Assembly: GCA_039918595.1 (NCBI GenBank)
Contig: JBDSHF010000028.1
Span: 5,370 to 69,369, forward strand
Direction: 5' to 3'
Source of the DNA: Thermoanaerobaculia bacterium
GTDB lineage: Bacteria > Acidobacteriota > Thermoanaerobaculia > Multivoradales > UBA5704
Length of the DNA stretch: 64,000 bases
In this document: positions 12,710 to 28,791 of the stretch, one piece after another
Layout: every line of letters begins with the position of its first letter
Numbering within the stretch: the stretch's first letter is position 1
Notes under the pieces: model-generated
Seen by the model: only the letters and a program-made list of their open reading frames with translations
Told to the model about the DNA's origin: nothing
The model's database searches: none
Position numbers and translations under genes: made by a program

Positions 12710-14326
12710 CTAATTTTCTCGCATCGTCCAAGGTACACTGACAGGTACGTTGGGATGCTCTGAAAGCCAATCGTAGATCTCTGCGATTGCGTGTCTCGAT
12801 CCAAGATGAGGACTGTTTGCCGCTTCCGGCAGATCTGTACCGCTTCGAGGGGTGTACCGAGTACGTCCACCTAGTTCTGTTTCGTCGCCTTTCATAAGCA
12901 GGCGAAAAGGAAACGACAGCTCAATAACAACGTTTTCTCGGCTAACGCACCGGTTCGAGGTGAGCATTTCGAGGAATTCACGTTTTTCCTCGTCATTTCC
13001 CATTTCATGGCTCAACGAGGCCGTAGAAGCAAGTTCGAGGATTTCCCGCAGCCGGGTAGCGGTTTCGTCTTGATTCGTTCCGCCTGAAAGCTTTTCCTCA
13101 AGCTCGCGCTCTTCCATGAGAAGCCGCTTCTTACGGGGCTCGAAGGTTTCCTTGTCGATACTTCCCTCAAGGAAGGCATCTACAAGCCTGTCATGGCGAG
13201 TCTGAAGCGCCGCGAGCTGGAGCTTCCATGTCTCCTGTATACGCTTGGTATTCTCTCCGCAGGTTTCAAGGAAGGCTGTCGCTTCCATCTCCAGGGCCGT
13301 GCGTTCCGAGTCGGACAGCTTGAGCGTTGCATACGCTCCCGTGACCGCGGCATCAAGCACTTCTTCCCGCACGCCGGTCAGAGGACAGGTCTTCGAGTGG
13401 CAGCGGTAGTAGACATGACTTTTTTGCAGCTCGGCGATGAGGGAATACCCGCACTCGGCGCACTTGAACATGCGACGGTAGCGGAAGAGATTGCGTTTGG
13501 CCTGCTTCTGGGTCTTGCCGGAGAGAACCGCCTGCACGCGGTCGAAGAGATGCTTTCCGATGAGCGGCTCGTGCACTCCCTTGTATACCTCCCTTCGCTT
13601 GTGAGCAATGAGCCCTATATAGAAGGGATTGTTGAGCATGGAAGAGAGACCGTTTTTGGTGACACGCCCGCCCTGTCGGTTGCGAAGCCCCATCCGTCGA
13701 AGCTCGGCACACAATGTCTCAAGGCTATGGGCGCCGGTTGCGTATAGCTCGAAGGCTCTGCGGACCATGGGTCCAGTGACCGGGTCAATCGTTTTGACCT
13801 TGCCACGCTGGCCGTTGTTGACGTAGCCCAAGGGCGCTCCCCACGGGAGGAGCCCCTGTTTCAGGCGCCCATCTATACCCTTCCGTACCTCCTCTTTAAG
13901 GTTGCGGATGTAGTCGGTCGCAAAGACCGCCTGCACGTCGGCCAAGAGCCGCTTGCCCCGGGTACTGAGGTCGAGATTGTCGCTTGCGAAGCGGACACCG
14001 AACCCCTCGTCGGCAAGGTCGTTAATGTTGGCCCAATCGTGGTAGTTGCGGCTGGAGCGGTCCACCTTGTGCACGATGAAGCCGTCGGCTTCACCCATCC
14101 GCAGGCGCTTCGCCATGGCGGTGAAAATGGGTCGGCCCTGCTTCGCTGCGGTCTCTACCTCGCGGAACCACTCGACGATGGTCAGCCCTTCACGTTCGGC
14201 ATAGCGGGCGATAACGCTCCGCTGTTCGGTGAAGGAGGCGCCTTCGCGTGAGTCCTTGCTTCCGGGATCTCTTTCGTCGTCTTGGCTTGGATCCGAGACA
14301 CGGATGTAGGCGAAGAATCGCTTCAT
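12710..14326 (-). CDS. large serine recombinase R1
   Basis: FFAYIRVSDPSQ (catalytic Ser region), VHKVDRSSRN, recombinase domain, Cys cluster FKCAECGY...YYRCHSKTCP, then a coiled-coil tail. Confidence 0.85.
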   Translation of the reverse strand: MKRFFAYIRVSDPSQDDERDPGSKDSREGASFTEQRSVIARYAEREGLTIVEWFREVETAAKQGRPIFTAMAKRLRMGEADGFIVHKVDRSSRNYHDWANINDLADEGFGVRFASDNLDLSTRGKRLLADVQAVFATDYIRNLKEEVRKGIDGRLKQGLLPWGAPLGYVNNGQRGKVKTIDPVTGPMVRRAFELYATGAHSLETLCAELRRMGLRNRQGGRVTKNGLSSMLNNPFYIGLIAHKRREVYKGVHEPLIGKHLFDRVQAVLSGKTQKQAKRNLFRYRRMFKCAECGYSLIAELQKSHVYYRCHSKTCPLTGVREEVLDAAVTGAYATLKLSDSERTALEMEATAFLETCGENTKRIQETWKLQLAALQTRHDRLVDAFLEGSIDKETFEPRKKRLLMEERELEEKLSGGTNQDETATRLREILELASTASLSHEMGNDEEKREFLEMLTSNRCVSRENVVIELSFPFRLLMKGDETELGGRTRYTPRSGTDLPEAANSPHLGSRHAIAEIYDWLSEHPNVPVSVPWTMREN

Positions 14327-14556
14327 ACGTCCGTGTCTTCTATTTGTCTTGTAAAGGTTCGACCGGAGTCCATGCTACCGGGGTAATTCGGCGCTGTCAA
14401 AGCGGCGAGGCGCTCGCGCTCGGCCGGATCGGAAGCAATGCGAGCGTGCAGGCGCAGGATAAAAGACAGGTAGCGGCGGAGCGCATGGCGCGCCTCTTCC
14501 GCTTCCTCCGGCGCAAGGTCGGGAAAGAGAGTTTCAGGTGTGGTTTGCGATTGCAT
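14323..14556 (-). CDS. hypothetical protein coupled to recombinase R1
   Basis: Stop overlaps the R1 start by 4 nt. Start chosen at MQSQTT (14556) to leave room for divergent promoters; the track ORF extends to 14673. Confidence 0.35.
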   Translation of the reverse strand: MQSQTTPETLFPDLAPEEAEEARHALRRYLSFILRLHARIASDPAERERLAALTAPNYPGSMDSGRTFTRQIEDTDV

Positions 14557-14665
14557 CCGTCGAGCGTACAGGCGCGGTTCGGAGTGGAGAAGTCGCGCTT
14601 CTGTGCCGGAGTCGGCAGCATGGTGCGTATTTGAGGCGGGATATAAGGGCAGTACGCTCTCCCAC

Positions 14666-15280
14666 ATGACCATACAACTTTCACAAGCGGTGAAAAATCA
14701 CCGCAACCTGCCGCCGGATTTTTGGTTTGACTTAGAGAGCCAGGGCATCAGTGCGGCTGTCATTCACTCCCGCCTCATCGGGTGGGACGAGGAGCACGTG
14801 ACCATTCCGATCGTCTCGCGGGATCGGAAAGTTATCGGCTTCGAATATGCGACGTTTGATGAAAACGGCCGGCTGGTAACAATGCCGCAGGAAGGACCCG
14901 GACCATACCTCTATGGAGAGCCGGTCCTCAATGTCAACCCACAGGAGGTCGTTTTGACTGAGGGCGTAACGGAGTCCTTGATCCTCTCAAGCCACGGATT
15001 CAATGCGCTTTCGGCAACCGGCGACGGTCTTTCATTCCGCACCGAATGGGCGCCCGTCCTTCAGAAGGTCCCGAACGTCTTTCTCTGCTTCAAGCGCGCG
15101 AGCGAAAGCATTCAGGCGGCGCTCGGCATTCGCGAGCTGGTGCCGCACGTCCGGATCGTGACGCTTCCTCCCGAGGTCGGTCAGGGAGGCGGGCTCTACG
15201 AGTTCTTCGTGGAGCTTGAAGCGACGACGGAGGACTTTCGGCAGCTCCTCAAGCGAGCTGCCACTTCTTCCGATGCCTGA
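14666..15280 (+). CDS. Toprim-like domain protein (degenerate)
   Basis: QEVVLTEGVTESLILSSHGFNALSATG resembles the Toprim E-G motif. The expected DxD motif is not seen. Start at the ATG at 14666. Confidence 0.45.
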   Translation: MTIQLSQAVKNHRNLPPDFWFDLESQGISAAVIHSRLIGWDEEHVTIPIVSRDRKVIGFEYATFDENGRLVTMPQEGPGPYLYGEPVLNVNPQEVVLTEGVTESLILSSHGFNALSATGDGLSFRTEWAPVLQKVPNVFLCFKRASESIQAALGIRELVPHVRIVTLPPEVGQGGGLYEFFVELEATTEDFRQLLKRAATSSDA

Positions 15281-16652
15281 TCCTCGCCCAGAGAAGAAGC
15301 AGTTCCGGCCGGTCGTGTCCTTGACCCTGCCTACCGGTGAAATGCTCGAAACGGTATTCGACCCCGCCGCTCCGGCGACGGGGTTTATTGTGTTCGATGG
15401 CAAGAAGTGGAGAAGCGAGCGAAAGGTGGAGCTTCCGGGAGGTGTGACCCTTGTCCCGTACTCGGCAGAGAACAACCTCATCACGCATCGCGTAGTCCTG
15501 TTTCCTTCCGCGCCAGAGGAATACGGCTCCGAGGAGGAGCTGTTCGCCGACGTGCGCTCCTTCATCCATCGCTACGTGGATCTCTCCGATGGCTTCGAGG
15601 AAGTTTCCACCGCATACGTGCTCTTCTCTTGGGTCTATGACGCCTTCAACGAGGTGCCGTACCTGCGCGTGCGCGGCGACTACGGCTCGGGCAAATCGCG
15701 CTTTCTCCTCACCGTGGGGTCCCTCTGCTACAAGCCGATCTTCGCCTCGGGCGCCTCGACGGTCTCTCCGATCTTCCGCATCCTCGACGCCGTGCAAGGG
15801 ACGCTTGTCGTGGATGAGGGAGACTTCCGGGCTTCGGACGAAAAGGCCGAAATCATCAAGATCTTGAACAACGGCAACGCCAAGGGCTTCCCGGTCCTCC
15901 GAAGCGAGCAGACACCCGCGAAGGAGTTCAACCCCCGGGCCTTTCACGTCTTCGGCCCTAAGCTCGTGGCGACGCGGAACCTCTTCGATGACCGGGCGCT
16001 TGAGAGCCGTTGCCTCTCCGAGGAGATGGGTACGCGGCCTCTGCGGCCCGACATCTCCATCAACCTGCCGGAAGCCTTCGAGGAAGAGGCCCGGACTCTC
16101 CGAAACAAGCTCCTCCTCTATCGGCTGCGGACACGGGCGAGCCGCCGGCCGCTTGCCGCTGCGCCTCCGGGGCTTGAGCCGCGCCTCTCGCAGATCCTCT
16201 TGCCGCTTCTCTCTACGGCACCCTCAGAGGAGACGCGAGCGCGCCTCCTCGCGCTTGCGAAACGCTCGGGAGAGGTCATCTCGACCGAGCGGGCCATGGC
16301 GATGGAGGCCGAGGTGCTCGCCATCCTCTACGAGCTGCGGGAGGAGAAGGTCCCGCTCGCGGTTATAGAGATCGCCCAGAGATTCGCGAAGCGCCACGCC
16401 GCCGAGTATGAGTACGCGGTGACGCCCCGCTGGATCGGATCGATTTTACGGAGGAAGCTCATGTTGAACCCCCAGAAGCGCGGGGGCACCTTCACCATCC
16501 CCGCATCCGAGTACCCGAAGCTCGCCCGCCTTTTCGAGAAATACAGCGTGGGGCGCCAGGACATCGGGGACATTGGGGATGTTCAACCGGGAGAGGAGCG
16601 CGATGGCACAAGCGCGGAATCACAAGAGTCCTCGGGCTCCGTGTCCCTGTAG
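15273..16652 (+). CDS. P-loop NTPase, replication/primase-associated helicase-like
   Basis: Walker A GDYGSGKS and Walker B LVVDEGD. 8-nt overlap with the Toprim-like gene. Confidence 0.5.
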   Translation: MPDPRPEKKQFRPVVSLTLPTGEMLETVFDPAAPATGFIVFDGKKWRSERKVELPGGVTLVPYSAENNLITHRVVLFPSAPEEYGSEEELFADVRSFIHRYVDLSDGFEEVSTAYVLFSWVYDAFNEVPYLRVRGDYGSGKSRFLLTVGSLCYKPIFASGASTVSPIFRILDAVQGTLVVDEGDFRASDEKAEIIKILNNGNAKGFPVLRSEQTPAKEFNPRAFHVFGPKLVATRNLFDDRALESRCLSEEMGTRPLRPDISINLPEAFEEEARTLRNKLLLYRLRTRASRRPLAAAPPGLEPRLSQILLPLLSTAPSEETRARLLALAKRSGEVISTERAMAMEAEVLAILYELREEKVPLAVIEIAQRFAKRHAAEYEYAVTPRWIGSILRRKLMLNPQKRGGTFTIPASEYPKLARLFEKYSVGRQDIGDIGDVQPGEERDGTSAESQESSGSVSL

Positions 16653-16684: not shown

Positions 16685-16706
16685 AACCTGCCGACCCCGG
16701 CAGGTT
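16685..16706 (+). terminator. hairpin terminator after 15273..16652
   Basis: AACCTGCCG, loop ACCC, CGGCAGGTT, followed by a T-rich tract. Confidence 0.45.
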
Positions 16707-16720
16707 ATTGCGTCTTGTAT

Positions 16721-16735
16721 TTGACATACTGTCAA
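16721..16735. promoter_or_regulatory. perfect palindrome TTGACATACTGTCAA (candidate operator overlapping a -35-like TTGACA)
   Basis: Sits 14 nt upstream of HTH gene 16749..17108. Confidence 0.4.
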
Positions 16736-16748
16736 GTATATTGCTGCG

Positions 16749-17108
16749 GTGGCTATGACATTCATACCATTACAGAACTATCTCCGTACCTACCGCAGGC
16801 GCAGTTTTCTCTCGCAGGACGAGGTTGCTTTCCTTTTGGGCGCAAAGACCGGGACACGGGTCACCCGCCATGAGGGAGCTAACCGGATTCCGAAGATGGA
16901 GACGGCGCTTGGCTACGAAGTGCTGTTCGGCGTTCCCTTGCGCGAACTGTTCGCAAGCGAGGCGCACAAGGTCGAAACCATTATCAGACAGCGTGTGCCC
17001 GAGCTGATCCGGGAGGTCGAGGAGAAGGGCGAAAGCAGAGAGAAGCTTTCCTTTCTCCGAAGCCTTTCCGAACGGCTCGCAAAGCATCATGAGAACACTT
17101 GCAATTGA
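16749..17108 (+). CDS. HTH regulator (XRE-like)
   Basis: RRSFLSQDEVAFLLGAKTGTRVTRHEGANRIPKMETALGYEVLFG. Start is GTG 16749 or ATG 16755. Confidence 0.6.
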   Translation: MAMTFIPLQNYLRTYRRRSFLSQDEVAFLLGAKTGTRVTRHEGANRIPKMETALGYEVLFGVPLRELFASEAHKVETIIRQRVPELIREVEEKGESREKLSFLRSLSERLAKHHENTCN

Positions 17109-17571
17109 CCCTACTACGTCCGGCTTCGGCTTCGTGGTCCTCGAAGGAAGCGAGCGCCTGGTTGATTGGGGCCTCGGGCGACTGGAAAAGCCCGAGGATA
17201 CCCTCTTCCTGAAGCGGATCGAAAAGCTTCTTGACCGCGCAGCACCGCAGCTCCTTGTCCTTGAGGACATGGAGGACTCGCGCCGCGGCAAGAGGGCTAT
17301 CGCCTGGACGCGGCTTGCACAGATGTGCGCTGCGAAGCGCGGCATCAGGGTGGAGAGAATCGGCCGCGCGGAAGTGTCAGAGCGCTTTGCTTCCTCGGGA
17401 AAGTCGAGATGGGAGGTCGGCCTTGCGATCTCGCGCTTCTTCCCGGAGCTCGCCCCGAGCCTTCCGAAGAAACGGCGTATCTGGGAGAGCGAGGACCGGC
17501 GCATGACGATCTTCACGGCCGCCTCCTTTGCCTTGACCTTCCTGCGTCGAGCGGATCGAAGTAGAGAGTAG
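17089..17571 (+). CDS. RuvC-like (RNase H-fold) nuclease
   Basis: LAIDPTTSGFGFVVLE, QLLVLEDME and SEDRRMTIFTAASFALTFL parallel the RuvC blocks GIDPG..GYGVI, faiE and D.aDAlaiA. 20-nt overlap with the upstream HTH gene. Confidence 0.6.
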   Translation: MRTLAIDPTTSGFGFVVLEGSERLVDWGLGRLEKPEDTLFLKRIEKLLDRAAPQLLVLEDMEDSRRGKRAIAWTRLAQMCAAKRGIRVERIGRAEVSERFASSGKSRWEVGLAISRFFPELAPSLPKKRRIWESEDRRMTIFTAASFALTFLRRADRSRE

Positions 17572-17675
17572 CTAGCCTAGCGGTAGGCAAATCAACATCA
17601 TGTCTTTACGGAGAGGACACGGCACAAAGCTCCTCGGGTAACCTACCGGGGAGCTTTGGCGTACCCGACAGATAC

Positions 17676-18890
17676 GTGCGTCTTTGGAAGACGGGAGGAG
17701 ACGGGCACGATACGCCGATGCAATCCGACAACGACATCACCTATTTTGCCCGCATTAATCACCGCAACAAGGGGACGCCTTTCGGCATCCGGAGAGCCGA
17801 CCGCCGCACCCACATGTACGTCATCGGGAAGACCGGCACCGGGAAGTCAACGCTCTTGAAAACCCTCGCACTCCACGACATAGAACACGGCGAAGGGCTT
17901 GCATTGTTCGATCCGCACGGGGATCTTGCGGAGGAGATCGTATCGCTCGTGCCTGCGAACAGACGCGCGGATCTCATCTACCTCAACGTGCCGGATCGTT
18001 CCTTCGTCTGGCACTTCAACCCCTTTGCCGGCATTCCGGAAGAGAAGCACGCTCTTGCGGTGGCGGGCATGGTCGAGGTGTTCAAGAAGCTTTGGCCGGA
18101 CGAATGGGGGCCGCGTCTGGAGCATCTCCTCCGAAACGTGGTCTTCACGCTCCTCGCGGCCGGGGGCAACTTGGGCGACGTGCCCCGCCTGCTGTCTGAC
18201 AAGGATTATAGGAACGCAGCGGTGCGCCGGGTTACGAATGGGATGGTCCGGGAGTTCTGGGAGAAGGAGTATGCCGGGTACTCGCCCGCCTTCCGGGCGG
18301 TGGTGACGGCGCCACTCCAGAACAAGCTCGGAGCGTTCCTCACGGACCCCTTGCTCCACTTGATCCTTACCGGCGAGCGCAGCTCCTTCGACCTCAGGCA
18401 GCTCATGGACGGGGGGAAGATCCTCATCGTCAACCTCGCCAAGGGAAGGATCGGGGAGGGGCCGGCAACGCTCCTGGGGTCGCTCCTGGTATCGCACCTC
18501 TCCCTGGCAGCGCTTGAGCGTGCGGACCGGCCCCAGGAGGAGCGGAGGGACTTCTACCTCTACCTGGACGAATTCCACACCTTCGCCACGCTGACGCTCG
18601 CCACCATGCTCTCTGAACTCCGGAAGTACCGGCTAAACCTCATCCTGGCCCACCAGTATCTCTCCCAGTTGGAGACGGAGATCCGGGATGCGGTCTTCGG
18701 GAACGTGGGGACATTCATCGCCTTCCGGGTGGGGGCCTTGGACGCGTCGACCGTTGCCCGGGAGCTGGCGCCGAAGTTCGAGGCGGAGGATCTCCTGTCC
18801 CTGCCGAACTTCTCTGTTTACCTGCGGCTCATGATCCGGGGGGAGCCGTCCAAGCCGTTTAGTGCTGTCAGTTGTGCACCACTGTCTTGA
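17676..18890 (+). CDS. FtsK/HerA/T4CP-superfamily ATPase A (core only)
   Basis: Walker A GKTGTGKS followed by LFDPHGD. YLYLDEFHTFAT...RKYRLNLILAHQYLSQL. Start uncertain (GTG 17676 or ATG 17718). The C-terminus abuts the low-GC cassette. Confidence 0.7.
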   Translation: MRLWKTGGDGHDTPMQSDNDITYFARINHRNKGTPFGIRRADRRTHMYVIGKTGTGKSTLLKTLALHDIEHGEGLALFDPHGDLAEEIVSLVPANRRADLIYLNVPDRSFVWHFNPFAGIPEEKHALAVAGMVEVFKKLWPDEWGPRLEHLLRNVVFTLLAAGGNLGDVPRLLSDKDYRNAAVRRVTNGMVREFWEKEYAGYSPAFRAVVTAPLQNKLGAFLTDPLLHLILTGERSSFDLRQLMDGGKILIVNLAKGRIGEGPATLLGSLLVSHLSLAALERADRPQEERRDFYLYLDEFHTFATLTLATMLSELRKYRLNLILAHQYLSQLETEIRDAVFGNVGTFIAFRVGALDASTVARELAPKFEAEDLLSLPNFSVYLRLMIRGEPSKPFSAVSCAPLS

Positions 18891-18922
18891 CGCATCTGAT
18901 AAAGGCATGCGATAGTGATGCC

Positions 18923-19879
18923 ATGGCTAAACAAATCGCGGCCCGCTCTCAGGTGACGAGTCCTCACAAGCGTGATTGGCCCTTGGCTATTATTGTATTG
19001 TTCTTTGTCTTTATTTCAGGTTTCACTTTGTCAGCTCAGCCCGCAAGGAAGACTCTGTACACGAGCCAAGATGCCAAAATCGACGAACTGAAGTGTTCAT
19101 CCAAAGACAAGATTTTTCTACCTATTCTTCCGAAAAAGTCAATTTACGGAAAGGTGATCGAACCTGAAGATGTCCTACGCTCGGCGCCTCCTTCGAATCT
19201 TGCAAGTGATGCGGATGAATCTAGGAATTTAGTAGGATATTCGGGACCCTATTACAACGTGGAGGAGCTGACTGGAAATGTCGCCGTGCTCGAAAGGACT
19301 TTATATAACTGGCCGACTAATAATTGGCATGTAACAGGGTTGCTTCGAAATCAAACATGCATGGACATTCGAGTCTCGTCCATAACCGCCCACCTTATCG
19401 GGCCAAGCGGTAAGGAAGTGCGCATTGAAACTGCTACCGTTCCTATTAGTGATTTGAGACCGGGTGAGCCGGCCCCTTTTGATCTAAGTTCTCCAATCCC
19501 AAGAGAGAACGTTGAGCGCGTGGAATGGCAGATTGGATACGCAACAACGACAGAATCGCCCGTTCGGACTTTCTCATTTCTGGTATATCAGTCACGCCAG
19601 ATCACAAGTTCCTCGTACCTGCTTTTCGGCAGTATCCAGAACCTAGGGAGTTCCAGTGCGAGGGGAACTCACATTGTGGCGGCCTGGCTAGATAGTAGCG
19701 GCAGGGTTCGCTATGTAGCATCACCTCTGATTCAACTGGCGACCGGTCCATTGAGTCGAAGAAATAAAATAAATTTGGTGGGCAACGATTTTGAAGATTT
19801 CGTCTTTTCCGCTAATGATCCGCTGCTAGCATCAACGTTGAGTCAGGCAAACGTCGCAATCTGGGGTGTTGCAAATTGA
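18923..19879 (+). CDS. membrane-anchored/secreted protein with two beta-sandwich-like repeats
   Basis: N-terminal anchor WPLAIIVLFFVFISGFTL. Low GC. Stop overlaps the TTG start of the next gene. Confidence 0.55.
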   Translation: MAKQIAARSQVTSPHKRDWPLAIIVLFFVFISGFTLSAQPARKTLYTSQDAKIDELKCSSKDKIFLPILPKKSIYGKVIEPEDVLRSAPPSNLASDADESRNLVGYSGPYYNVEELTGNVAVLERTLYNWPTNNWHVTGLLRNQTCMDIRVSSITAHLIGPSGKEVRIETATVPISDLRPGEPAPFDLSSPIPRENVERVEWQIGYATTTESPVRTFSFLVYQSRQITSSSYLLFGSIQNLGSSSARGTHIVAAWLDSSGRVRYVASPLIQLATGPLSRRNKINLVGNDFEDFVFSANDPLLASTLSQANVAIWGVAN

Positions 19880-22800
19880 AATATTCAGCCTGGGCCTTAT
19901 CAGTGATCGTCCTAATTCTCTCGGGAGAAGGACAAGCGGCAGCGCATGACTTTGGCAGTATACCCTATGACGATGTGGTCTACGCGGCCCAAGTCTATAA
20001 TCAATGCAGGGATACTCTCCCGACTGACAAATTGGTTGCTTACATGCTCGCGCCGACATGGCGAGAATTAACCAATGGCAATACCAATCTAACGCCATCC
20101 CCTATGACATTGGGCAGAGGGGATAACGATTTGGATCTATATCCAGATGGTCAGTCCGGCGCAACTGCTCCGCACCGTCGCGCTTTTTGGCACCCGGGTA
20201 TTGGTCTCTGGCAACTCGATGATATCGGTCTTGGAAAAGACATTAGCACAGAGAAATTCAACTCAAGAGACGCGGCTCAGGTTGCAGCTACCATAATCTC
20301 AACTCGATATTGTAAATCGCCAACAGCTGCGTATATATATGGAGGTATCTGGATTGCTTGTGGGGCGGATGGGAGTCTTTGTCAGGATATTGTCAACCAA
20401 CTCTACAACCCTAATGGCCCTCCAGCGTATACAGTTGGTCGCGACAATAGTGTTGGTCGGTACGGTGGTTCGCAGTTGCATACGTGTAAACTAGCGGGCG
20501 ACACTAGGTATTTCGATTGCCTATATGTTAAGCCTGCCAACCCAGATGGAACACGAGCCAACGCCGAGGGTACTATATCAAGTTGGATTTACCAGCCATT
20601 AGAGGGTCTTTATCCCCCCAATACACCGTCTCCGCTAACAATGCCATTTTATGTCTATCGAGAGGATGCAACTGGAGGGGGATTCGAGTGGCGATATTGG
20701 CTAGCTGCTGATACAGGCTTCGGAAAAGATTATGCTGCTAGACGAACCTATGGCGCCAACTCTCGGGCAGGTCTCCATTGGGTTTCAGATGCGTCAACCA
20801 GCTTAGCTCTCTGTGATGTTACCCTTACACGCGGTGCCTGTGGAGGTATTCCCCAGGCACCTTCGATATCCAACATAGCACAGCTATCGTACGACGGGTC
20901 GCCACTTTCAGTCGGCGCTATTACACAAGCTGGAACCGTTATACTCCGAGGTACACTTGCTGGTTCTCAGGGTCAACAAGTACGAATTGAGCTAGAGGTT
21001 CGGAGAATCTCTGACCCGTTCTTAGGTGAACCGAATTACCTTGGAAACTACGTCACCAGTGGGAGCGTAAGCAAGTGTGTCACGGGACTGCAAGACGCCA
21101 AATATCATTGGCAGGCACGAGTGAGGAGCGATAGTGGACAGTTCAGTCAATGGCTTCAGTTCGGGGGAAACTCTGAAGCCAGTCCTGATTTCGAGGTACA
21201 GGCTAATAGATGTGCTATTTGCACTGCGTCTGGCGCATCTGCTGTGGTCACAAAGTATGGCCGTATTGGAATATCCTGTGGCGTACCCCTGGCTGTAGAA
21301 CTTGCAGCGTCTGTCAACAATGGTATTACCCTGCTTAATGGTGTAAGTCTGACGGCATCGGTGAGTGGTTCGGAAACCGGCACTATAAATTACACGTTTT
21401 ATTGTAATCGTCCCGATGGAGGAATTGATGTTAGATCTGGATGGATTGCCAAGTACGATGGGATTTCGGCGAATCCGAAAACAGCATATGACGTATGTGA
21501 CTATGTTGGGCCGGGTATTTATACTGCAAAGGTGATCGCTGAGCGTGGATCAAGCGCAGCTGAATCACGGACACTCATCACCGTTTCGGCACCTTCAACG
21601 CAAACTCCTTCGGTTACAACGAGTGGCTCGGCAAATGTGACCCAAAGTAGTGCGACTCTCAGTTTATCTGTTAATCCAAACGGGTCTGATACTTCAGCCT
21701 GGTTTGATTGGGGGACGAGCACCTCCTTCTGCTGTAACACGAGTCAGCAGACAGTCGCGGCTAGTTCGGGAGCGTCACTGCTTAGTATGACCGTAGGCGC
21801 CCTTCAATGCGACACAACCTACTACTTCCGAGCCCACGCACAAAGTGTAGGCGGAGAAGCCACAGGAAGCACCTTGTCATTCCGAACGGGTGCATGTGGC
21901 AACGGCCCCCAAACCGTTCAACTTGTGCCTGATCCAGGCTTCGAGCAAGGAAACAATGCGTGGTGGGTAGCGAGCCCAGCGTTCTATATCGATCATGCTC
22001 CCACCTTCCCGAATCCGCGCAATGGAAGTTACTACGCTTTCCTTTCCACGTCCAACGGCTCGGCGGGCAACAATTTGCAGGGCGGCGTGATATCGCCCCA
22101 AGTCACCATTCCTTCAAACGCAAGCGGAGCTGAACTGCGCTTCTGGTATAGCGTTTCGACACAGGAGACGAGTACATCAATCTTTGATACCCTCAAGGCT
22201 TACCTAGTTAAGCCGGGGAATCAAGCGACACTCTTTGCAACCATCTCAAACTTGGACAATTCTGGCACAACGTATAGAGAGAAGGTTGTCGGCATTCCCT
22301 CCTCATTTTTCGGCGGCCCGGTGCAGATCTTTTTCTCTGGCGCAACAGACGGTAGCTTGCCTACCGTCTTCCGCGTAGACGATGTGACGCTTTCTGCCTT
22401 CATCCCTGCGACGGCCGGTTCGCCTGTCGTTAGCACGGGGTCTGTTGACCAAATTACCTCGTCTAGCGGACGGCTCAGCATGACTGTCAACCCCAACGGT
22501 GCCGACACTCAGGTGTGGTTTGATATAGAAACGAACAATCCGCCGAACTCTGAGACAGAGCACGTAGCTATAGGAACCGGGCAGCAGGCCGAGGGCGTTA
22601 GCATTAGTGTATTCGGCTTGCGATGCGACACGACCTACTACTATCGGGCTGATGCCGTCAATTCGTACGGATCACAGCTAGGCTCTGTGAGTTCTTTTAG
22701 AACCAGTACTTGTCCCGTTCAAGCCCCCTCAGTATCAACCACTGTTGCTGACAGTATAACGTCCACCTCTGCGCGTTTGGTTGGGAGCGTCAATCCAAAC

Positions 22801-24789
22801 GGCTTCTCAACAACGGTTTGGTTCGCTTGGGGAACCGATACGACGCTCGGAAATTCTACGCCTAGCCAGAACGTCGGCAGTGGTAATTCTTCAGTGAGCT
22901 TCGCGGCTACACTCAATAACCTTCAGTGCGGCACTACCTACTACTACCGTGCCAAGGGGCAGAACAGCGGCGGGCAGACATCCGGTGCGCTCTACAACGT
23001 AACAACTTCCCCTTGCAGCCAAATACCCGTTATAACGATAACGGCAAGCGATCCGACTGCGACTGAAAATCCCATGACTACGGGGGAGTTTCTCATCCAG
23101 CGAACAGGAGATCTTTCTAGTGCGTTATCGGTGGCATACACCGTGGGAGGAACCGCCATCGTTGGGGTAGATCACACGCTTGGAGGCGGGAGCGTGACCA
23201 TCCCCTCTGGATCAGCCTCGACTACTTTGACCGTCTTTCCGATCGACGATTCACTGGTCGAACCAGATGAGACCGTCGTTGTGACGCTTCAGCCGCAGTC
23301 CCAATATACAGTTGGTACCCCAAGCGGTGCCACTGTTACAATTACGAGTGATGATACGGGATGTGCCTTAAGTGTCATAAGGCCGCAAGGTGGAGAGGTG
23401 TGGACAAAAGGATCACCTCATACCGTTCAGTGGAGTGCGAACTCTGATTGCGTGGACTTTGCCTTTATTCTATACAGAAATGGTAACTTTGATGGCTACC
23501 TGACAGGTTCTCTGTCCGGGAGCCAATTTAGCTGGACACCTCCGGCGTGGCTCGTACCAAGTCCCGGGCTGCAGATTGATGTTGTAGGATTCAACGCTGA
23601 TGGCACTGGTGTTTCGGCGCGTTCAAACAACTTTACGCTTATCAACCCTGCGGTCCTTCCCGCAGTCATATTCCAGGACACTGTAGAGACTAACGATGAG
23701 TTCAACTACTACTCCGAAGGATGGGGAGTGACAAATTTCACCTCGCACAGCCCCACGCATTCGCGCGCGGATAGTCCTGCTTTCTACGGCAACAACACGA
23801 ACAGCTCACTTATAACACCTAAAATCGATGTTAGTAGCCGCACCTCCCTCTCTCTCAGCTTCTGGCATCGCTTTAGTCTTGCGGACTTCGACTTCGTGAA
23901 CGTCTGGGTTAAGACCGATCAAGGAGATTGGATCTTCTTGCAGGGCTTTACCGGAATCCAATCTGACTGGCGACAGGTCACAATTAACCTGAACGCTTTC
24001 CTTGGCCAACCGTCTGTTCAGGTCGCTTTTCAGATAGTATCTGATGATGCTCTGACTGCCGATGGCTGGTATATCGACGACATCGTATTGAGTGGGGCGA
24101 GTGACACTAATAAAATTTTCTCTAATGGTTTTGAGTCCGGTGATCTTTCGGCATGGTTGGTGGCGCCGCCGAGCGACGGAAGCATCGTTTCTGTTTTGGA
24201 GCAGGGTGTCCCAGGGCAACCCGGAAAGGATATTTGGACAACGAGCAACTATTCATTTGCGCCGGGCGGCAACACGCCGGGAGGTGGGTTGGACAACGAA
24301 GAGCTTGTAGTAGGAGGATGGGGCGACAATTACTACAGCCTCCTTGAGTTCAATCTCGCAGGGCTTCCAAGTCACGCATCCTCGGCAGTGCTCAAGCTCT
24401 TTTGCTACCGGACTCGTGCTACCGAAACGATTGGCATGTATGTCGAGCGTATAACCCAGATATGGGATTGGCGTACCCAAGGCACCGGCCGAGATAGGGA
24501 GAGGTTATGGTGGGCAGACCAACCGCAGTCACTCAATTGGATAGGCTTGCCGGTCACGAAGCCGACGGTAGGGCAGTGGTACTCAATCGACATCACGGAT
24601 CTCTATAACGCATGGCAGAACGGATCTGTGCCAAACTACGGCATCAAGCTCACACCGGTTGATAATGGTAACGAGTGGAGCGAGTTTTACAGCGCAAACT
24701 ACTCTGATCCGGCCTTCCGGCCTCGGCTCGTAATTCGGCCGGATCAATCTACCGTTAAACGTTCTCCTCTATCTAGGAAGCCACGGTAG
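19876..24789 (+). CDS. giant secreted multidomain protein (three FN3-like repeats, Calx-beta-like and DNRLRE-like C-terminal domains)
   Basis: Signal peptide MKYSAWALSVIVLILSGEGQAAA. Three repeats with NPNG..T..WF.WGT...LQC.TTYYYRA (~21600-23015). Calx-beta-like ITITASDPTATE...VEPDETVVVTL. C-terminal GGLDNEELVVGGWGDNYYSLLEFNL. Confidence 0.8.
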   Translation: MKYSAWALSVIVLILSGEGQAAAHDFGSIPYDDVVYAAQVYNQCRDTLPTDKLVAYMLAPTWRELTNGNTNLTPSPMTLGRGDNDLDLYPDGQSGATAPHRRAFWHPGIGLWQLDDIGLGKDISTEKFNSRDAAQVAATIISTRYCKSPTAAYIYGGIWIACGADGSLCQDIVNQLYNPNGPPAYTVGRDNSVGRYGGSQLHTCKLAGDTRYFDCLYVKPANPDGTRANAEGTISSWIYQPLEGLYPPNTPSPLTMPFYVYREDATGGGFEWRYWLAADTGFGKDYAARRTYGANSRAGLHWVSDASTSLALCDVTLTRGACGGIPQAPSISNIAQLSYDGSPLSVGAITQAGTVILRGTLAGSQGQQVRIELEVRRISDPFLGEPNYLGNYVTSGSVSKCVTGLQDAKYHWQARVRSDSGQFSQWLQFGGNSEASPDFEVQANRCAICTASGASAVVTKYGRIGISCGVPLAVELAASVNNGITLLNGVSLTASVSGSETGTINYTFYCNRPDGGIDVRSGWIAKYDGISANPKTAYDVCDYVGPGIYTAKVIAERGSSAAESRTLITVSAPSTQTPSVTTSGSANVTQSSATLSLSVNPNGSDTSAWFDWGTSTSFCCNTSQQTVAASSGASLLSMTVGALQCDTTYYFRAHAQSVGGEATGSTLSFRTGACGNGPQTVQLVPDPGFEQGNNAWWVASPAFYIDHAPTFPNPRNGSYYAFLSTSNGSAGNNLQGGVISPQVTIPSNASGAELRFWYSVSTQETSTSIFDTLKAYLVKPGNQATLFATISNLDNSGTTYREKVVGIPSSFFGGPVQIFFSGATDGSLPTVFRVDDVTLSAFIPATAGSPVVSTGSVDQITSSSGRLSMTVNPNGADTQVWFDIETNNPPNSETEHVAIGTGQQAEGVSISVFGLRCDTTYYYRADAVNSYGSQLGSVSSFRTSTCPVQAPSVSTTVADSITSTSARLVGSVNPNGFSTTVWFAWGTDTTLGNSTPSQNVGSGNSSVSFAATLNNLQCGTTYYYRAKGQNSGGQTSGALYNVTTSPCSQIPVITITASDPTATENPMTTGEFLIQRTGDLSSALSVAYTVGGTAIVGVDHTLGGGSVTIPSGSASTTLTVFPIDDSLVEPDETVVVTLQPQSQYTVGTPSGATVTITSDDTGCALSVIRPQGGEVWTKGSPHTVQWSANSDCVDFAFILYRNGNFDGYLTGSLSGSQFSWTPPAWLVPSPGLQIDVVGFNADGTGVSARSNNFTLINPAVLPAVIFQDTVETNDEFNYYSEGWGVTNFTSHSPTHSRADSPAFYGNNTNSSLITPKIDVSSRTSLSLSFWHRFSLADFDFVNVWVKTDQGDWIFLQGFTGIQSDWRQVTINLNAFLGQPSVQVAFQIVSDDALTADGWYIDDIVLSGASDTNKIFSNGFESGDLSAWLVAPPSDGSIVSVLEQGVPGQPGKDIWTTSNYSFAPGGNTPGGGLDNEELVVGGWGDNYYSLLEFNLAGLPSHASSAVLKLFCYRTRATETIGMYVERITQIWDWRTQGTGRDRERLWWADQPQSLNWIGLPVTKPTVGQWYSIDITDLYNAWQNGSVPNYGIKLTPVDNGNEWSEFYSANYSDPAFRPRLVIRPDQSTVKRSPLSRKPR

Positions 24790-24939
24790 GATGTGCTACC
24801 TGGATTGACTGATAAGGAACGGCAAGAGTATGTTCTAAAGTCAAATCTCGATGTCGCAGAATGTAAATTCCTCTATTTGAACTCTCTCCCGGGTCTTGCT
24901 AGTCTCATTCGTACCAACCGAAGTACGGAGGATCCCCGC

Positions 24940-25635
24940 ATGCCCCGACACTCTGACGGAGTAGTGCTGTCCAACTGGCATACCCTCTTCGAGGACTTCT
25001 CGACCTCGACCCAGGACTTCTATGCCGCTGTTGAAGCCGCGATTGCAGACCGGAACCTCCCAGACATCAAACTCTCCCGCGTCTTCTTCAGTGAGGGCGG
25101 CATCGGTTCCGCCAAGCGCGAATACCTCCGCATCGAGCGCCAGCGGATCGTCTTCGACATCTGCTCCGCGCCATACGGCAAGGGGCACTTCTTCTCCTGG
25201 TGGCTTGCCAAGATCCCAGCGAAGTATGGTCTTTTCATCGTTCTCGGTATTGCCCTCGGATGTCTTCCACTCTGTCTCATCTTCCTTGGCATCCTCTTGA
25301 AAATCTTCGAGGGCTCCCTCTTCGGCATGGTCGTCCTTCCCTTCATCTCCCTCCTCGTCATCCCGGCGATCTTCCTTCTCCTCGGTCTCGGCGTCGAGCG
25401 AGGGCTCATCGGCGACGAGGAATGGGTCCTCTCCATCCCCTGGGTCGGATACCTGTACTACGTAGTCTTCAACCCTGTCTCATACTACCGCCTCGACACC
25501 GCCATGATGTTCCGCGACTCGATACGCTCGGCCGTGAACGAGGTCTTGAACGACCTGCGGGAAGAGAAGGGCCTGCGGCTCCTCGGGGACGAGGAACTCC
25601 GGCCCGACGCCGACGAGGGAGAGGCCACGGCGTAG
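24940..25635 (+). CDS. membrane protein (about three TM helices) upstream of ATPase B
   Basis: ATG at 24940 with GGAGGA RBS. GLFIVLGIALGCLPLCLIFLGILL and MVVLPFISLLVIPAIFLLLGLG. GC rises at this start relative to the cassette. Confidence 0.6.
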   Translation: MPRHSDGVVLSNWHTLFEDFSTSTQDFYAAVEAAIADRNLPDIKLSRVFFSEGGIGSAKREYLRIERQRIVFDICSAPYGKGHFFSWWLAKIPAKYGLFIVLGIALGCLPLCLIFLGILLKIFEGSLFGMVVLPFISLLVIPAIFLLLGLGVERGLIGDEEWVLSIPWVGYLYYVVFNPVSYYRLDTAMMFRDSIRSAVNEVLNDLREEKGLRLLGDEELRPDADEGEATA

Positions 25636-25641
25636 CGGGGT

Positions 25642-28600: not shown

Positions 28601-28650
28601 TCGCCGAGATCCTGGCCCGGAGTACGAGCGGGCTAGAGAAGGATGGGTAG
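25642..28650 (+). CDS. FtsK/HerA/T4CP-superfamily ATPase B with long N-domain, Pro-rich linker and C-terminal PD-(D/E)xK-like nuclease domain
   Basis: Walker A GASGTGKS plus VIDPHGD. FFLYLDEFHN...RKYRLGVTVAHQDLYQL, paralogous to ATPase A. Linker PPAAPAPPERP...PPPLPAQ. C-terminal GRESIDIALYRGDLKIACEVSV. Confidence 0.7.
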   Translation: MASRVEERTHHFFRWERRGRGRRSFLSPVSLEPPFTPFWFVKHAAPALDDGRHHTFLSAFLERFSGKREAPPPEPEIEEPEAEPGDEGEPVELRVLLPQELSVTAALSEGFLKSLAAVHTPLSLELVGIGGEVAVSLTSRRTAVPILSSQLRAFFPEVRLEEEEDLLLTAWESGVEGVFGAVELGLSREFMLPLGRPRNFTPDPLTAIVGALAETAPGEVVIVQVLFQGVRSPWAENIVRSVTTPSGEPFFADAPEVTKLAREKVSAPLFAVAVRVVARGATEERLWTLLSGSLGALVGATRGDNELVPLGTDDSTEILGDVLLRRTHRSGFLLSLPELLPLVHLPSPSIPGIARDTGRTKLLPEEAQEGGLFLGYNVHAGREREARLSTDARLRHVHVVGASGTGKSTLLVSMILQDIAAGHGVGVIDPHGDLIDHVLGGIPENRAADVILFDPADPEHVVGWNILSAHSEAEKDMLSSDLVAVFRRLSTSWGDQMTAVLAGAILAFLESERGGTLLDLRRFLVDQGFRREFLATVRDEYARDFWTREFPVLKGSPQASIVTRLDTLLRGKLVRGVVTARDKPLDFRGVVDDRRIFLAKLSQGAIGEENAALLGSLLVSKIHQVCLLRQDQAEGSRRPFFLYLDEFHNLATPSMATLFSGARKYRLGVTVAHQDLYQLHASVPEVERAVLGNAYTRICFRLGDEDARTLSAGFSFFTADDLGNLDTGRAICRVGRKEHDFNLSVVPMEHGDPEAHEARRRDVRARSLARWGAPRSAEPPAAPAPPERPRAEAPPRVEVPLAQPQPKRETAPPPSAPPPLPAQVQAPEPPPVEPRRPGKGGPEHTYLQELIKRWGEEKGFRAVVEEQIAGGRESIDIALYRGDLKIACEVSVTTPLEYEVGNVEKCLAAGFGTVAVVSLKKARLAKLGKLLDEAIPSESRAKVHLFTTEELLSWLEGQPVHEEVKTVRGWKVKVKYRDPGDDRMKRVAEILARSTSGLEKDG

Positions 28651-28676
28651 GTAGGTACTCTCCGGCGCCGCATCCC

Positions 28677-28705
28677 GCCACAGGGGCACCTTGTGGCGTC
28701 TTTCC
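28677..28705 (+). terminator. hairpin after ATPase B
   Basis: GCCACA (28677-82) pairs with TGTGGC (28692-97), followed by GTCTTTCC. Confidence 0.35.
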
Positions 28706-28791
28706 GGCTACCATCGGCGCGCGTACGGTGGGCGAAGAGTGTTCTTCACACCTTCAACCCTCCGCGAGAGCGGATCTCTTTGGAGACAAGG

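What the first reader, a model, noticed from the sequence alone, without database searches (positions are those of the whole stretch)
16721..18890. HTH / RuvC-like nuclease / HerA-FtsK-type ATPase operon: a NurA-HerA-like pairing on the island
Seen: a palindromic operator-like site TTGACATACTGTCAA is followed by three genes. These are an HTH gene (16749..17108), a 160-aa RuvC/RNase H-fold protein overlapping it by 20 nt (17089..17571), and ATPase A (17676..18890; Walker A GKTGTGKS, then DPHGD). A 9-bp-stem hairpin (17625-17658) separates the nuclease and ATPase genes. Established: HerA-family hexameric ATPases commonly work with a partner nuclease, for example NurA (RNase H-like fold) in end resection, or Sir2/DUF4297 partners in antiphage systems. 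Inference: this could be a nuclease-translocase pair serving either element DNA processing or defence. No relaxase or VirB4 gene is visible in the 30 kb of island present here.
Basis: partly seen in the sequence, partly recalled or inferred. Interest (0 to 1): 0.6.

Follow-up and report, generated by a model that had tools for sequence, protein, structure and literature searches.

The report
RuvC-like gene beside coupling-type ATPase
Three real genes on an integrated mobile element (a small repressor-type protein, a RuvC-type DNA-junction nuclease and a conjugation-type TrwB/VirD4-like, not HerA-like, DNA-motor ATPase) belong to one widespread, undescribed element family, but as separate modules rather than a dedicated nuclease-motor pair.

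Summary
The described features are all in the sequence. The palindrome, the HTH gene, the overlapping 160-aa gene, the hairpin and the P-loop ATPase are real and conserved in relatives.

The 160-aa protein has a RuvC fold (AF2 pLDDT 94.6; Foldseek top hits are RuvC, TM about 0.7). However, the window's clade has Thr at the position of E. coli RuvC D141.

ATPase A is a coupling-protein-type ATPase (TrwB, Cagbeta, DotL). It has an all-alpha insertion and no transmembrane segment. It is not a HerA.

Across 160 related loci the RuvC-like gene is always coupled to the HTH gene, and it travels with a DnaG-type primase, a P-loop protein and a large serine recombinase. ATPase A is a separate module:
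- It is adjacent to the RuvC-like gene in 11 of 80 loci.
- It lies within 10 kb in 30 of 80 loci.
- It is absent from 50 of 80 loci.
- It has a different evolutionary history.
- It is often followed by a membrane protein and a 1000-aa second coupling-type ATPase, both present in the window at 24.8-28.7 kb.

The island ends in a second serine recombinase inserted into a comM-like gene. A NurA-HerA-like pairing is not supported. Shared service in element DNA processing or transfer remains plausible.

The parts
12710..14326 (-). Large serine recombinase SR1, divergent from the primase/P-loop/HTH/RuvC block
   Evidence: Pfam Resolvase 1.5e-21, Recombinase 1.5e-15 and Zn_ribbon_recom. It holds the same position in relatives.
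14540..15280 (+). DnaG-type Toprim primase fragment (start codon uncertain)
   Evidence: phrog_47 DNA primase at 1.1e-6. The family profile hits DnaG and T7 gp4 primase structures at 1e-9 to 1e-25. Relatives carry Toprim plus a CHC2 zinc ribbon.
15216..16652 (+). 478-aa P-loop protein (GSGKSR, VVDEGD), a conserved element core gene and presumed replication ATPase
   Evidence: The sequence shows the motifs. The protein is strongly conserved, with mean column identity 61% across 13 relatives. It has no Pfam, NCBIfam or PDB match.
16685..16706 (.). Perfect 9+9 palindrome AACCTGCCG-ACCC-CGGCAGGTT, a widely conserved element motif (YTGCCR-N2-8-YGGCAR)
   Evidence: The motif recurs upstream of the HTH gene, upstream of ATPase A, between the recombinase and the primase, and at the recombinase 3' end in relatives. 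Another copy lies at 12817 in the window.
16715..16742 (+). Inferred promoter. The -35-like TTGTAT is at 16715-20 and the -10-like TATATT at 16737-42. The operator-like palindrome TTGACATACTGTCAA (16721-35) fills the 16-nt spacer.
   Evidence: Read directly from the sequence. The layout is conserved in close relatives and the palindrome is unique in the window. The consensus promoter scan did not call it, so it is an inference.
16755..17108 (+). Xre-type HTH protein (117 aa from ATG 16755; the ORF opens at GTG 16749)
   Evidence: HTH_31 weak in the window copy and clear in homologues. It lies directly upstream of the RuvC-like gene in 38 of 43 loci. Its identity tracks that of the RuvC-like protein, rho 0.85.
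17089..17571 (+). RuvC-fold protein, 160 aa, overlapping the HTH gene by 20 nt. D7, E59 and E135 are conserved. T143 sits at the position of E. coli RuvC D141.
17572..17717 (+). Structured spacer, with hairpins at about 17601-17621 and at 17625-17658
   Evidence: MFE -58.9 kcal/mol, z = -4.67. Conserved in relatives. No Rfam match.
17718..18890 (+). ATPase A, a 390-aa soluble coupling-protein-type (TrwB/VirD4-like) P-loop ATPase with an all-alpha insertion (about residues 108-232)
   Evidence: No hydrophobic segment. 100% identical to P0055.
18872..24789 (+). Low-GC cargo: an FxLYD-domain protein and a 1637-aa surface-type protein
   Evidence: GC is 0.48-0.54 here against about 0.60 on either side. 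Relatives carry different cargo at this position.
24793..25635 (+). p280, a membrane protein, conserved partner gene of ATPase B
   Evidence: Strongly hydrophobic segments at about 147-215. Homologues precede ATPase B in 28-35 related loci.
25642..28650 (+). ATPase B, a 1002-aa second coupling-protein-type ATPase. The ATPase domain spans 387-711, followed by a Pro-rich linker and a C-terminal domain.
   Evidence: Pfam T4SS-DNA_transf, TrwB_AAD_bind and TraG-D_C. NCBIfam VirD4-like and TraD. It follows ATPase A directly in L011, L028, L031, L035, L041, L042, L044, L051, L067 and L078.
28693..30375 (+). Second large serine recombinase SR2, at the right end of the island
   Evidence: Pfam Resolvase 9.4e-29 and Recombinase 8.3e-19. 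It holds the same position in relatives.
30278..31351 (-). Truncated comM/yifB-like gene, the insertion target and island boundary
   Evidence: The Mg_chelatase domain stops at profile position 159 of 207 at the junction. GC rises from about 0.6 to about 0.69 here.

Best explanation
The region is part of the core of an integrated mobile element that sits in a comM-like gene and is bounded on the right by a large serine recombinase. It holds two separate functional modules.

Module 1 is SR1, a DnaG-type primase, a 478-aa P-loop protein, the HTH gene and the RuvC-like gene. It is the element's recombination, replication and control block. The Xre-type HTH protein is made from a short-leader or leaderless mRNA. 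Its promoter spacer is filled by the palindrome TTGAC-N5-GTCAA, so it probably represses its own operon (inferred). The RuvC-like gene is translationally coupled to the HTH gene. It encodes a Holliday-junction-resolvase-type, structure-specific DNA-binding protein or nuclease that deals with branched intermediates of the excised, replicating element (inferred). In the window's clade one of the four canonical carboxylates is replaced by Thr, so its cleavage activity may be weakened or altered.

Module 2 begins with ATPase A. This is a soluble, presumably hexameric TrwB/VirD4-type DNA-dependent ATPase with its own conserved structured leader. It belongs functionally with the membrane protein p280 and the 1000-aa coupling-type ATPase B further downstream, as the element's DNA-transfer or translocation apparatus (inferred). 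Variable cargo is inserted between A and p280-B.

The sequence cannot decide whether this apparatus docks onto a helper type IV secretion system or pumps DNA on its own. The RuvC-like protein and ATPase A are neighbours here because the window's clade has no cargo between the two modules, not because they form a dedicated pair.
For: Folds and families:
- RuvC.
- Coupling-protein clade for ATPase A.
- Primase.
- Recombinases and the truncated comM-like gene.
- p280 as a membrane protein and ATPase B as a coupling-type ATPase.

Module structure, from 80 ATPase-selected and 80 RuvC-selected loci:
- HTH and RuvC-like genes are always contiguous.
- The block from recombinase to RuvC-like gene inverts as a unit in L056, L059, L060, L072 and L074.
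- Cargo of 1-5 kb lies between the RuvC-like gene and ATPase A in L001, L006, L014, L016 and L022.
- A-p280-B are directly contiguous in at least 10 loci that have no RuvC-like gene within 10 kb.

Incongruent module identities.

Operator and promoter layout is conserved in close relatives. A shared palindromic motif lies upstream of several operons of the element.

Transfer-associated context: an ArdC-like gene at 10977-11804; DUF932 and RadC next to the HTH-RuvC pair in L003 and L004; an orphan methylase and a DUF932-like gene next to ATPase A in relatives.
Against: No function was tested.

The RuvC-like protein of the window's clade lacks the acidic residue equivalent to E. coli RuvC D141. 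All members at 60% identity or more have T, S, A or V there, so a resolvase activity is not assured.

No relaxase, VirB4 or other T4SS gene was found, and ATPase A has no membrane anchor. The transfer role is therefore by analogy only.

The promoter is not called by a consensus scan.

The 478-aa P-loop protein could not be classified.

Co-localisation of the RuvC-like gene and ATPase A in two different adjacent arrangements is also what a true functional link would give.
Confidence: 0.55

Rival explanations
1. The RuvC-like nuclease and ATPase A form a dedicated nuclease-translocase machine, analogous to NurA-HerA or to HerA with Sir2 or DUF4297 partners. It would act in end processing or defence.
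For: RuvC-like genes lie within 10 kb of 30 of 80 ATPase-A loci. They are directly adjacent in 11, in two different arrangements and in several phyla. HerA structures, including HerA-NurA, appear among the Foldseek hits (TMq 0.53-0.60). Other ATPase-A loci carry a different nuclease next door, a Cas4-like PD-(D/E)xK protein.
Against: The ATPase is coupling-protein type with an all-alpha domain. No NurA appears among the fold hits of the nuclease. The two genes are non-adjacent or unlinked in most loci in both directions. Module histories are incongruent. The adjacent convergent cases are inversions of a five-gene block. A conserved structured spacer separates the two genes.
Confidence: 0.12
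2. HTH plus RuvC-like is a self-contained addiction or exclusion cassette. One version is an Xre antitoxin or repressor with a nuclease toxin. The other is a defence gene co-expressed with the element's repressor. Either way it would be unrelated to replication.
For: It is a two-gene cassette with the HTH gene first, overlapping coding regions and a palindrome in the promoter. The pair occurs next to toxin-antitoxin genes and without ATPase A in L003-L005. The pair is the only invariant unit.
Against: Its position at the end of the primase/P-loop block is fixed in most elements. PADLOC gives no hit for the nuclease. Some relatives add a canonical RuvC gene in tandem, which fits DNA processing better than toxicity. 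The window's clade has lost a catalytic-position carboxylate while staying conserved.
Confidence: 0.15
3. The RuvC-like protein acts mainly as a non-catalytic cofactor of the large serine recombinase. It would be a recombination directionality factor that has moonlighted from a replication or repair protein.
For: HTH, RuvC-like and recombinase genes are contiguous and co-directional in L064, L068, L079, L082, L084 and L091. The RuvC-like gene nearly always lies within a few kb of a serine recombinase. A catalytic-position Asp is lost in the window's clade. Known directionality factors of large serine recombinases are unrelated, often moonlighting replication proteins (PMC12286644; bioRxiv 10.1101/2024.08.21.608926).
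Against: There is no direct evidence. D7, E59 and E135 remain conserved, as expected for an enzyme. Many ATPase-A elements with serine recombinases lack the RuvC-like gene.
Confidence: 0.1

Closest known systems
TrwB / VirD4 / TraD type IV coupling proteins (R388 TrwB, H. pylori Cagbeta, Legionella DotL)
   Same: Best sequence and fold matches. Pfam TrwB_AAD_bind covers residues 43-334. TrwB scores E 3e-8 by sequence and E 4e-12 with TMq 0.64-0.70 by Foldseek. There is a nucleotide-binding domain plus an all-alpha insertion, with Walker A and B motifs.
   Different: No N-terminal transmembrane domain. Only 390 aa. No relaxase or T4SS genes in the island. It scores far below every NCBIfam TraD/VirD4 cut-off. 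It is accompanied by a second, 1000-aa paralogue with a separate membrane protein.
RuvC Holliday-junction resolvases (E. coli, T. thermophilus, D. radiodurans; phage bIL67 RuvC)
   Same: Same fold and size (TM about 0.7). D7 and E59 align with E. coli RuvC D7 and E66. The last helix motif D-A-x-x-x-A-x-T aligns.
   Different: No hit to Pfam RuvC. There is an 8-residue insertion carrying an invariant Glu (E135). The D138 position is not acidic. The D141 position is Thr in the window's clade. The protein is encoded on a mobile element and is translationally coupled to an HTH gene. A canonical RuvC paralogue sits next to it in some relatives.
HerA-NurA and the HerA-Sir2, HerA-DUF4297 and TdpAB defence systems
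   Same: Same ASCE FtsK-HerA superfamily of hexameric ATPases. HerA structures are second-tier fold hits. A nuclease gene lies next door.
   Different: The Pfam HerA domain matches only the P-loop (residues 44-83). PADLOC HerA models score E 5e-5 to 6e-3 over short stretches. The partner has a RuvC fold, not NurA, Sir2 or DUF4297. The pairing is not conserved.
Replicative integrated elements with large serine recombinases (SCCmec-type) and single-translocase conjugative elements of actinomycetes (AICE TraB). This comparison rests on my own knowledge of those systems.
   Same: Serine recombinase(s), a primase/helicase-type replication block and cargo. DNA movement is attributed to an FtsK-HerA-superfamily ATPase without a full T4SS.
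   Different: The ATPases here are VirD4-type, not FtsK-type. There are two of them plus a membrane protein. The hosts are diderm Acidobacteriota, Gemmatimonadota and others. Nothing has been tested.
MADS defence system, gene mad8 (PADLOC)
   Same: ATPase A and ATPase B match the mad8 model at E 1.8e-16 and 1.8e-20.
   Different: The MADS models were built from HHpred homologues in PDB and so are generic. None of the other seven mad genes, including the methyltransferase, is present around ATPase A in the window.

Membership tests
HerA-NurA type nuclease-translocase pair | ATPase of the HerA clade (HerA central domain over its full length, N-terminal HAS barrel) | tested here: not met
   Pfam DUF87/HerA matches residues 44-83 only. 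TrwB_AAD_bind covers 43-334. The best PDB hits by sequence and by fold are TrwB, Cagbeta and DotL, with HerA lower.
HerA-NurA type nuclease-translocase pair | Partner nuclease of the NurA family | tested here: not met
   Foldseek top hits are RuvC, MOC1, RuvX and YqgF. No NurA is listed among the 50 best hits.
HerA-NurA type nuclease-translocase pair | Conserved operonic pairing and co-evolution of the two genes | tested here: not met
   The genes are adjacent in 11 of 80 ATPase-selected loci and in 5 of 28 RuvC-selected loci. Identities are incongruent.
HerA-NurA type nuclease-translocase pair | Physical complex of the nuclease with the ATPase hexamer | not testable with these tools
   No multimer prediction or biochemistry is available here.
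Type IV coupling protein (VirD4/TrwB/TraD) | Nucleotide-binding domain with an inserted all-alpha domain | tested here: met
   The AF2 model (pLDDT 84.6) has a helical insertion at about residues 108-232. Foldseek gives TrwB at TMq 0.64-0.70. Pfam PF10412 scores above its cut-off.
Type IV coupling protein (VirD4/TrwB/TraD) | N-terminal transmembrane anchor | tested here: not met
   No hydrophobic 19-residue window reaches the threshold in ATPase A. The homologues are also about 390 aa.
Type IV coupling protein (VirD4/TrwB/TraD) | Cognate relaxase and T4SS (VirB4) encoded with it | tested here: not met
   None was found among the ORFs of 1-31 kb or in the related loci inspected. A helper system elsewhere in the genome cannot be excluded.
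Type IV coupling protein (VirD4/TrwB/TraD) | Reaches the curated score of an NCBIfam TraD/VirD4 model | tested here: not met
   Best scores are 35-36 bits, against cut-offs of 250-650.
RuvC family resolvase | RuvC/RNase H-like fold of about 160 aa | tested here: met
   with profile E 7e-4 to PDB RuvC.
RuvC family resolvase | Four catalytic residues (E. coli D7, E66, D138, D141) | tested here: not met
   D7 and E59 are present. The D138 position is T140 and is variable in the family. The D141 position is T143 in the window and T, S, A or V in all close relatives, but D or E in 93 of 129 family members. An invariant E135 lies in an insertion.
RuvC family resolvase | Matches Pfam PF02075 or TIGR00228 | tested here: not met
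   The window protein gives no Pfam or NCBIfam hit. The tandem paralogue in L157 does match, at 66 bits.
RuvC family resolvase | Dimeric, cleaves four-way junctions | not testable with these tools
   Needs biochemistry.
Type II toxin-antitoxin cassette | Toxicity of the second gene, neutralised by the first | not testable with these tools
   Only the gene layout is compatible.
MADS defence system | Eight-gene mad1-mad8 operon including a methyltransferase | tested here: not met
   Only the generic mad8 model matches. The neighbours are HTH, RuvC-like and cargo genes.

The most novel reading that the evidence does not exclude
The window samples an undescribed, phylum-spanning family of replicative elements integrated by serine recombinases. 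It is found in Acidobacteriota, Gemmatimonadota, Nitrospirota, NC10, Planctomycetota and others. These elements would move their DNA with a self-contained, T4SS-independent apparatus made of two coupling-type ATPases (soluble A; p280-anchored B). A recurring palindrome (YTGCCR-N4-YGGCAR) would serve as the common control or recognition site. A divergent RuvC-fold protein would act either as the debranching enzyme that prepares DNA for pumping or as the recombinase's directionality factor.
Probability: 0.15. Interest if true: 0.75.

Novelty: new variant of a known kind. Interest (0 to 1): 0.42.

Why it matters
There are four reasons.
- It corrects a tempting annotation: a nuclease next to a HerA-like ATPase read as a defence or resection machine.
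- It shows that the ATPase belongs to a very large, highly conserved group of orphan coupling-type ATPases. At least 7990 relatives were found in the protein collection, and 538 in species-representative genomes. These ATPases mark a family of integrated elements in poorly studied soil phyla.
- It defines a sizeable RuvC-like family that has no Pfam or NCBIfam hit here (3694 clusters at 50% identity).
- If the two-ATPase module proves to be a transfer device that works without a type IV secretion system, or if the RuvC-like protein proves to be a recombinase cofactor, either would be a new mechanism of gene flow in Acidobacteriota and their neighbours.

Tried and rejected
Family size of the RuvC-like protein. 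The word-indexed protein search gave only 54 relatives and suggested a tiny family. The exhaustive profile search gave 3694 clusters, so that impression was an artefact.

My first reading that the two genes are simply unlinked. Searches suggested this. The profile scan of 80 ATPase loci then found RuvC-like genes in 30 of them, so I softened it.

PADLOC mad8 hit. Rejected as generic.

Promoter and terminator. The consensus promoter scan did not call a promoter upstream of the HTH gene. No intrinsic terminator lies between the RuvC-like gene and ATPase A.

Rfam. Nothing in 12-31 kb.

Phage collection. Only 3 weak ATPase-A hits, so the element is not phage-typical. The phrog_5156 match has no function attached.

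Plasmid collection. The best hit is 46% identical, on a Sulfitobacter plasmid next to a recombinase, and is uninformative on function.

The 478-aa P-loop protein. It could not be classified by Pfam, NCBIfam or PDB profile search.

C-terminal domain of ATPase B. It looked PD-(D/E)xK-like by eye but has no PDB sequence hit.

Other checks. There are no tRNA genes in the window. The left end of the island and the 3' part of the comM-like gene are not in the window. Literature searches for this element type and for DUF8128 found nothing specific.
Full report
OBSERVATION

- Palindrome. TTGACATACTGTCAA is at 16721-16735. The complementary arms extend to 9 nt. It is the only TTGAC-N5-GTCAA in the window, against 0.03 expected.
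- HTH gene. The ORF is 16749-17108. The window copy is a weak Xre/HTH_31 match (E 1.4e-3), but homologues carry clear PF13560/PF01381 hits. The conserved N-terminus MTFIPL places the likely start at ATG 16755.
- 160-aa gene. The ORF 17089-17571 overlaps the HTH gene by 20 nt.
- Hairpin. It lies at 17625-17658, has 13-nt arms with one mismatch, and sits in a 149-nt spacer that folds far better than shuffles (z = -4.67). It is conserved in relatives with a few compensatory changes. No Rfam family matches.
- ATPase. The ORF 17676-18890 carries GKTGTGKS and DPHGD. Its likely start is ATG 17718, which gives the 390-aa protein P0055. P0055 is 100% identical and comes from a Thermoanaerobaculia MAG.

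THE RuvC-LIKE PROTEIN

It hits no Pfam or NCBIfam model. Three lines nevertheless support a RuvC relationship:
- A profile of 31 relatives finds Thermus, Deinococcus and Pseudomonas RuvC in PDB at E 7e-4 to 0.5.
- The AlphaFold model is confident (pLDDT 94.6).
- Its 12 best Foldseek matches are all RuvC (TM 0.65-0.72). Phage bIL67 RuvC, chloroplast MOC1 and RuvX/YqgF follow, and NurA is not listed.

Catalytic residues were mapped by profile alignment to E. coli RuvC, using a sequence I supplied from memory, together with the family alignments:
- D7 aligns with D7, and E59 with E66.
- The last-helix motif aligns so that position 143 equals D141.
- Position 140, equal to D138, is never acidic.
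- An invariant E135 sits in an 8-residue insertion.

Position 143 is D or E in 93 of 129 distinct family members. It is T, S, A or V in every member at 60% identity or more to the window protein. The fold assignment is therefore secure, but catalytic competence in this clade is not.

An exhaustive search shows the family is large: 3694 50%-identity clusters at E 1e-3 or better, and 820 at 1e-30 or better. In some relatives a second, canonical RuvC gene follows directly (PF02075, 66 bits; TIGR00228).

ATPase A

The sequence and fold evidence agrees:
- Pfam TrwB_AAD_bind covers residues 43-334, while the HerA central domain matches only the P-loop.
- NCBIfam lists VirD4-like and TraD models first, all far below their cut-offs.
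- The only PDB sequence matches at E below 0.01 are TrwB (3e-8) and DotL.
- The AF2 model (pLDDT 84.6) has a helical insertion between Walker A and B.
- The model matches TrwB best (E 4e-12, TMq 0.64-0.70), then Cagbeta and DotL, with HerA structures lower at TMq 0.53-0.60.
- It has no hydrophobic segment.

It is therefore a soluble coupling-protein-type ATPase, not a HerA.

The family is very large and very conserved. There are at least 7990 hits, with 64-100% identity among the best 120 listed. There are 538 relatives in species-representative genomes of Acidobacteriota, Gemmatimonadota, Nitrospirota, NC10, Rokubacteria, Planctomycetota, Verrucomicrobia, BRC1 and Omnitrophota.

CONTEXT AND CO-OCCURRENCE

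I fetched 80 loci selected on ATPase A (genome contigs) and 80 selected on the RuvC-like protein (metagenome contigs). I scanned their six-frame ORFs with profiles built here. Two modules emerge:
- Module 1: serine recombinase, DnaG-type Toprim primase, 478-aa P-loop protein, HTH, RuvC-like.
- Module 2: ATPase A, then variable cargo, then a membrane protein (p280) and a roughly 1000-aa second coupling-type ATPase (B), often followed by a second serine recombinase.

The window has all of these. p280 is at 24793-25635 and ATPase B at 25642-28650. SR2 is at 28693-30375 and abuts a comM-like gene truncated at 30278, where GC rises from about 0.60 to about 0.69.

The counts:
- HTH lies directly upstream of the RuvC-like gene in 38 of 43 testable loci.
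- In ATPase-selected loci, a RuvC-like gene is within 10 kb in 30 of 80. It is directly upstream and co-directional in 6, directly downstream and convergent in 5, and absent in 50.
- Of RuvC-selected contigs with at least 1.5 kb downstream, 5 of 28 have ATPase A adjacent. Of 8 contigs with at least 6 kb downstream, 4 have it within 6 kb.

In the convergent cases the whole five-gene module 1 is inverted as a block (L056, L059, L060, L072, L074). In L001, L006, L014, L016 and L022, 1-5 kb of cargo separates the two genes. In at least 10 loci A, p280 and B are contiguous with no RuvC-like gene within 10 kb.

Identities to the window proteins are incongruent. ATPase A at 80-83% goes with RuvC-like at 38-47%. 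ATPase A at 74-78% goes with RuvC-like at 61-78%. The Spearman correlation is 0.85 for HTH against RuvC-like and 0.59 for ATPase A against RuvC-like.

An unbiased clustering of neighbours of ATPase A also finds three other frequent neighbours in loci without the RuvC-like gene:
- a divergent Cas4-like PD-(D/E)xK nuclease with a SWIM-like protein;
- an orphan N6/N4 DNA methylase directly upstream;
- a DUF932-like protein.

REGULATORY DNA

In the window's clade the arms TTGAC/GTCAA are kept while the centre varies. The palindrome exactly fills the 16-nt spacer between a -35-like TTGTAT (TTGCAT or TTGATT in relatives) and a -10-like TATATT (TAAGTT or TATGTT in relatives), about 12 nt before the conserved ATG. 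That is the classic place for a repressor operator, and it implies a very short leader. The consensus scan did not call this promoter, so it is an inference.

A second palindrome, AACCTGCCG-ACCC-CGGCAGGTT (16685-16706), is conserved much more widely as YTGCCR-N2-8-YGGCAR. In relatives it recurs upstream of the HTH gene, upstream of ATPase A, between recombinase and primase, and at the recombinase 3' end. It may be a common control site, a terminator-like hairpin or a recognition site. I could not decide among these.

INTERPRETATION

The best-supported reading is that HTH plus RuvC-like is the regulatory and DNA-processing end of the element's replication and recombination block. ATPase A is the first gene of a separate DNA-transfer or translocation module that also includes p280 and ATPase B.

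Transfer-associated genes support a transferred element. There is an ArdC-like gene with HExxH at 10977-11804. DUF932 and RadC lie beside the pair in L003 and L004. A methylase and a DUF932-like gene lie beside ATPase A elsewhere.

No relaxase or VirB4 is present, so the mechanism of transfer is open. It could be docking on a helper T4SS or autonomous pumping, as with actinomycete TraB; the TraB comparison rests on my own knowledge.

A looser functional connection, debranching before translocation, cannot be excluded.

Two rivals remain for the HTH-RuvC pair. One is an addiction or exclusion cassette. The other is a moonlighting directionality factor for the serine recombinase. Published work shows such factors are often borrowed replication proteins.

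The PADLOC mad8 hits are generic, because those models were built from PDB homologues.

VERDICT

The locus is a new variant of known kinds, namely an integrated replicative element with orphan coupling-type ATPases and a divergent RuvC-like family. Interest is moderate.

Noticed in passing
window 16685-16706 and 12817-12832 (relaxed copy at 14604); L012, L019-21, L032, L034, L036, L056, L072, L074: A palindrome YTGCCR-N2-8-YGGCAR (window: AACCTGCCG-ACCC-CGGCAGGTT) is conserved across clades whose proteins are only about 40% identical. It recurs upstream of the HTH gene, upstream of ATPase A, between recombinase and primase, and near the recombinase 3' end. It could be a common operator, a hairpin terminator or a recognition site.
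   Followed up: partly
window 17572-17717: The spacer between the RuvC-like gene and ATPase A is a conserved, strongly folding region (z = -4.67) with at least two hairpins and no Rfam match. It may be a leader RNA or a DNA site such as a transfer origin.
   Followed up: partly
window 24793-30375: A membrane protein (p280), a 1002-aa second coupling-type ATPase with a Pro-rich linker and an unclassified C-terminal domain, and a second large serine recombinase. The trio of ATPase A, p280 and ATPase B is contiguous in many related loci.
   Followed up: partly
window 30278-31351 (- strand): A comM/yifB-like gene is truncated within its Mg_chelatase domain exactly at the end of the low-GC island, so the element is inserted in comM. 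The 3' part of the gene is not in the window, so the island is longer than 30 kb or composite.
   Followed up: partly
window 18872-24789: Cargo of markedly lower GC (0.48-0.54): an FxLYD-domain protein and a 1637-aa protein with MAM, Calx-beta, CBM96 and Ig-like domains. Relatives carry quite different cargo at this spot, including a kinase-TPR protein, an ECF sigma factor, an M23 peptidase, AdoMet decarboxylase and a methyltransferase.
   Followed up: no
window 10977-11804 (- strand): An ArdC-like protein, with a weak ArdcN hit and a HExxH motif (WAHELVHAADH). ArdC is an anti-restriction factor, and I know such genes as typical of conjugatively transferred DNA.
   Followed up: no
L157:4806-5345, L131:591-1163, L134:2022-2621, L138:590-1228: A second, canonical RuvC gene (PF02075, TIGR00228) sits directly after the HTH-RuvC-like pair in some elements. 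It keeps the catalytic D, E and D and shares the FPEL...LP...W insertion, so the two are paralogues.
   Followed up: partly
L041:8111-9911, L048:8924-9919, L040:11744-12481 and about 20 further loci each: Where no RuvC-like gene is present, ATPase A often has one of three neighbours. One is a divergent Cas4-like PD-(D/E)xK nuclease with a SWIM-like protein. Another is an orphan N6/N4 DNA methylase abutting its start. The third is a DUF932-like protein.
   Followed up: partly
L060:14577-15563 (- strand) versus window 14540-15280: In relatives the element primase has its CHC2 zinc ribbon C-terminal to the Toprim domain, the reverse of the DnaG order as I know it. The window copy (246 aa) lacks the zinc ribbon.
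   Followed up: no
window 12066-12551 (- strand): A small ORF with a Sigma-70 region 2 hit lies just beyond SR1. Relatives carry ECF sigma genes as cargo near ATPase A.
   Followed up: no
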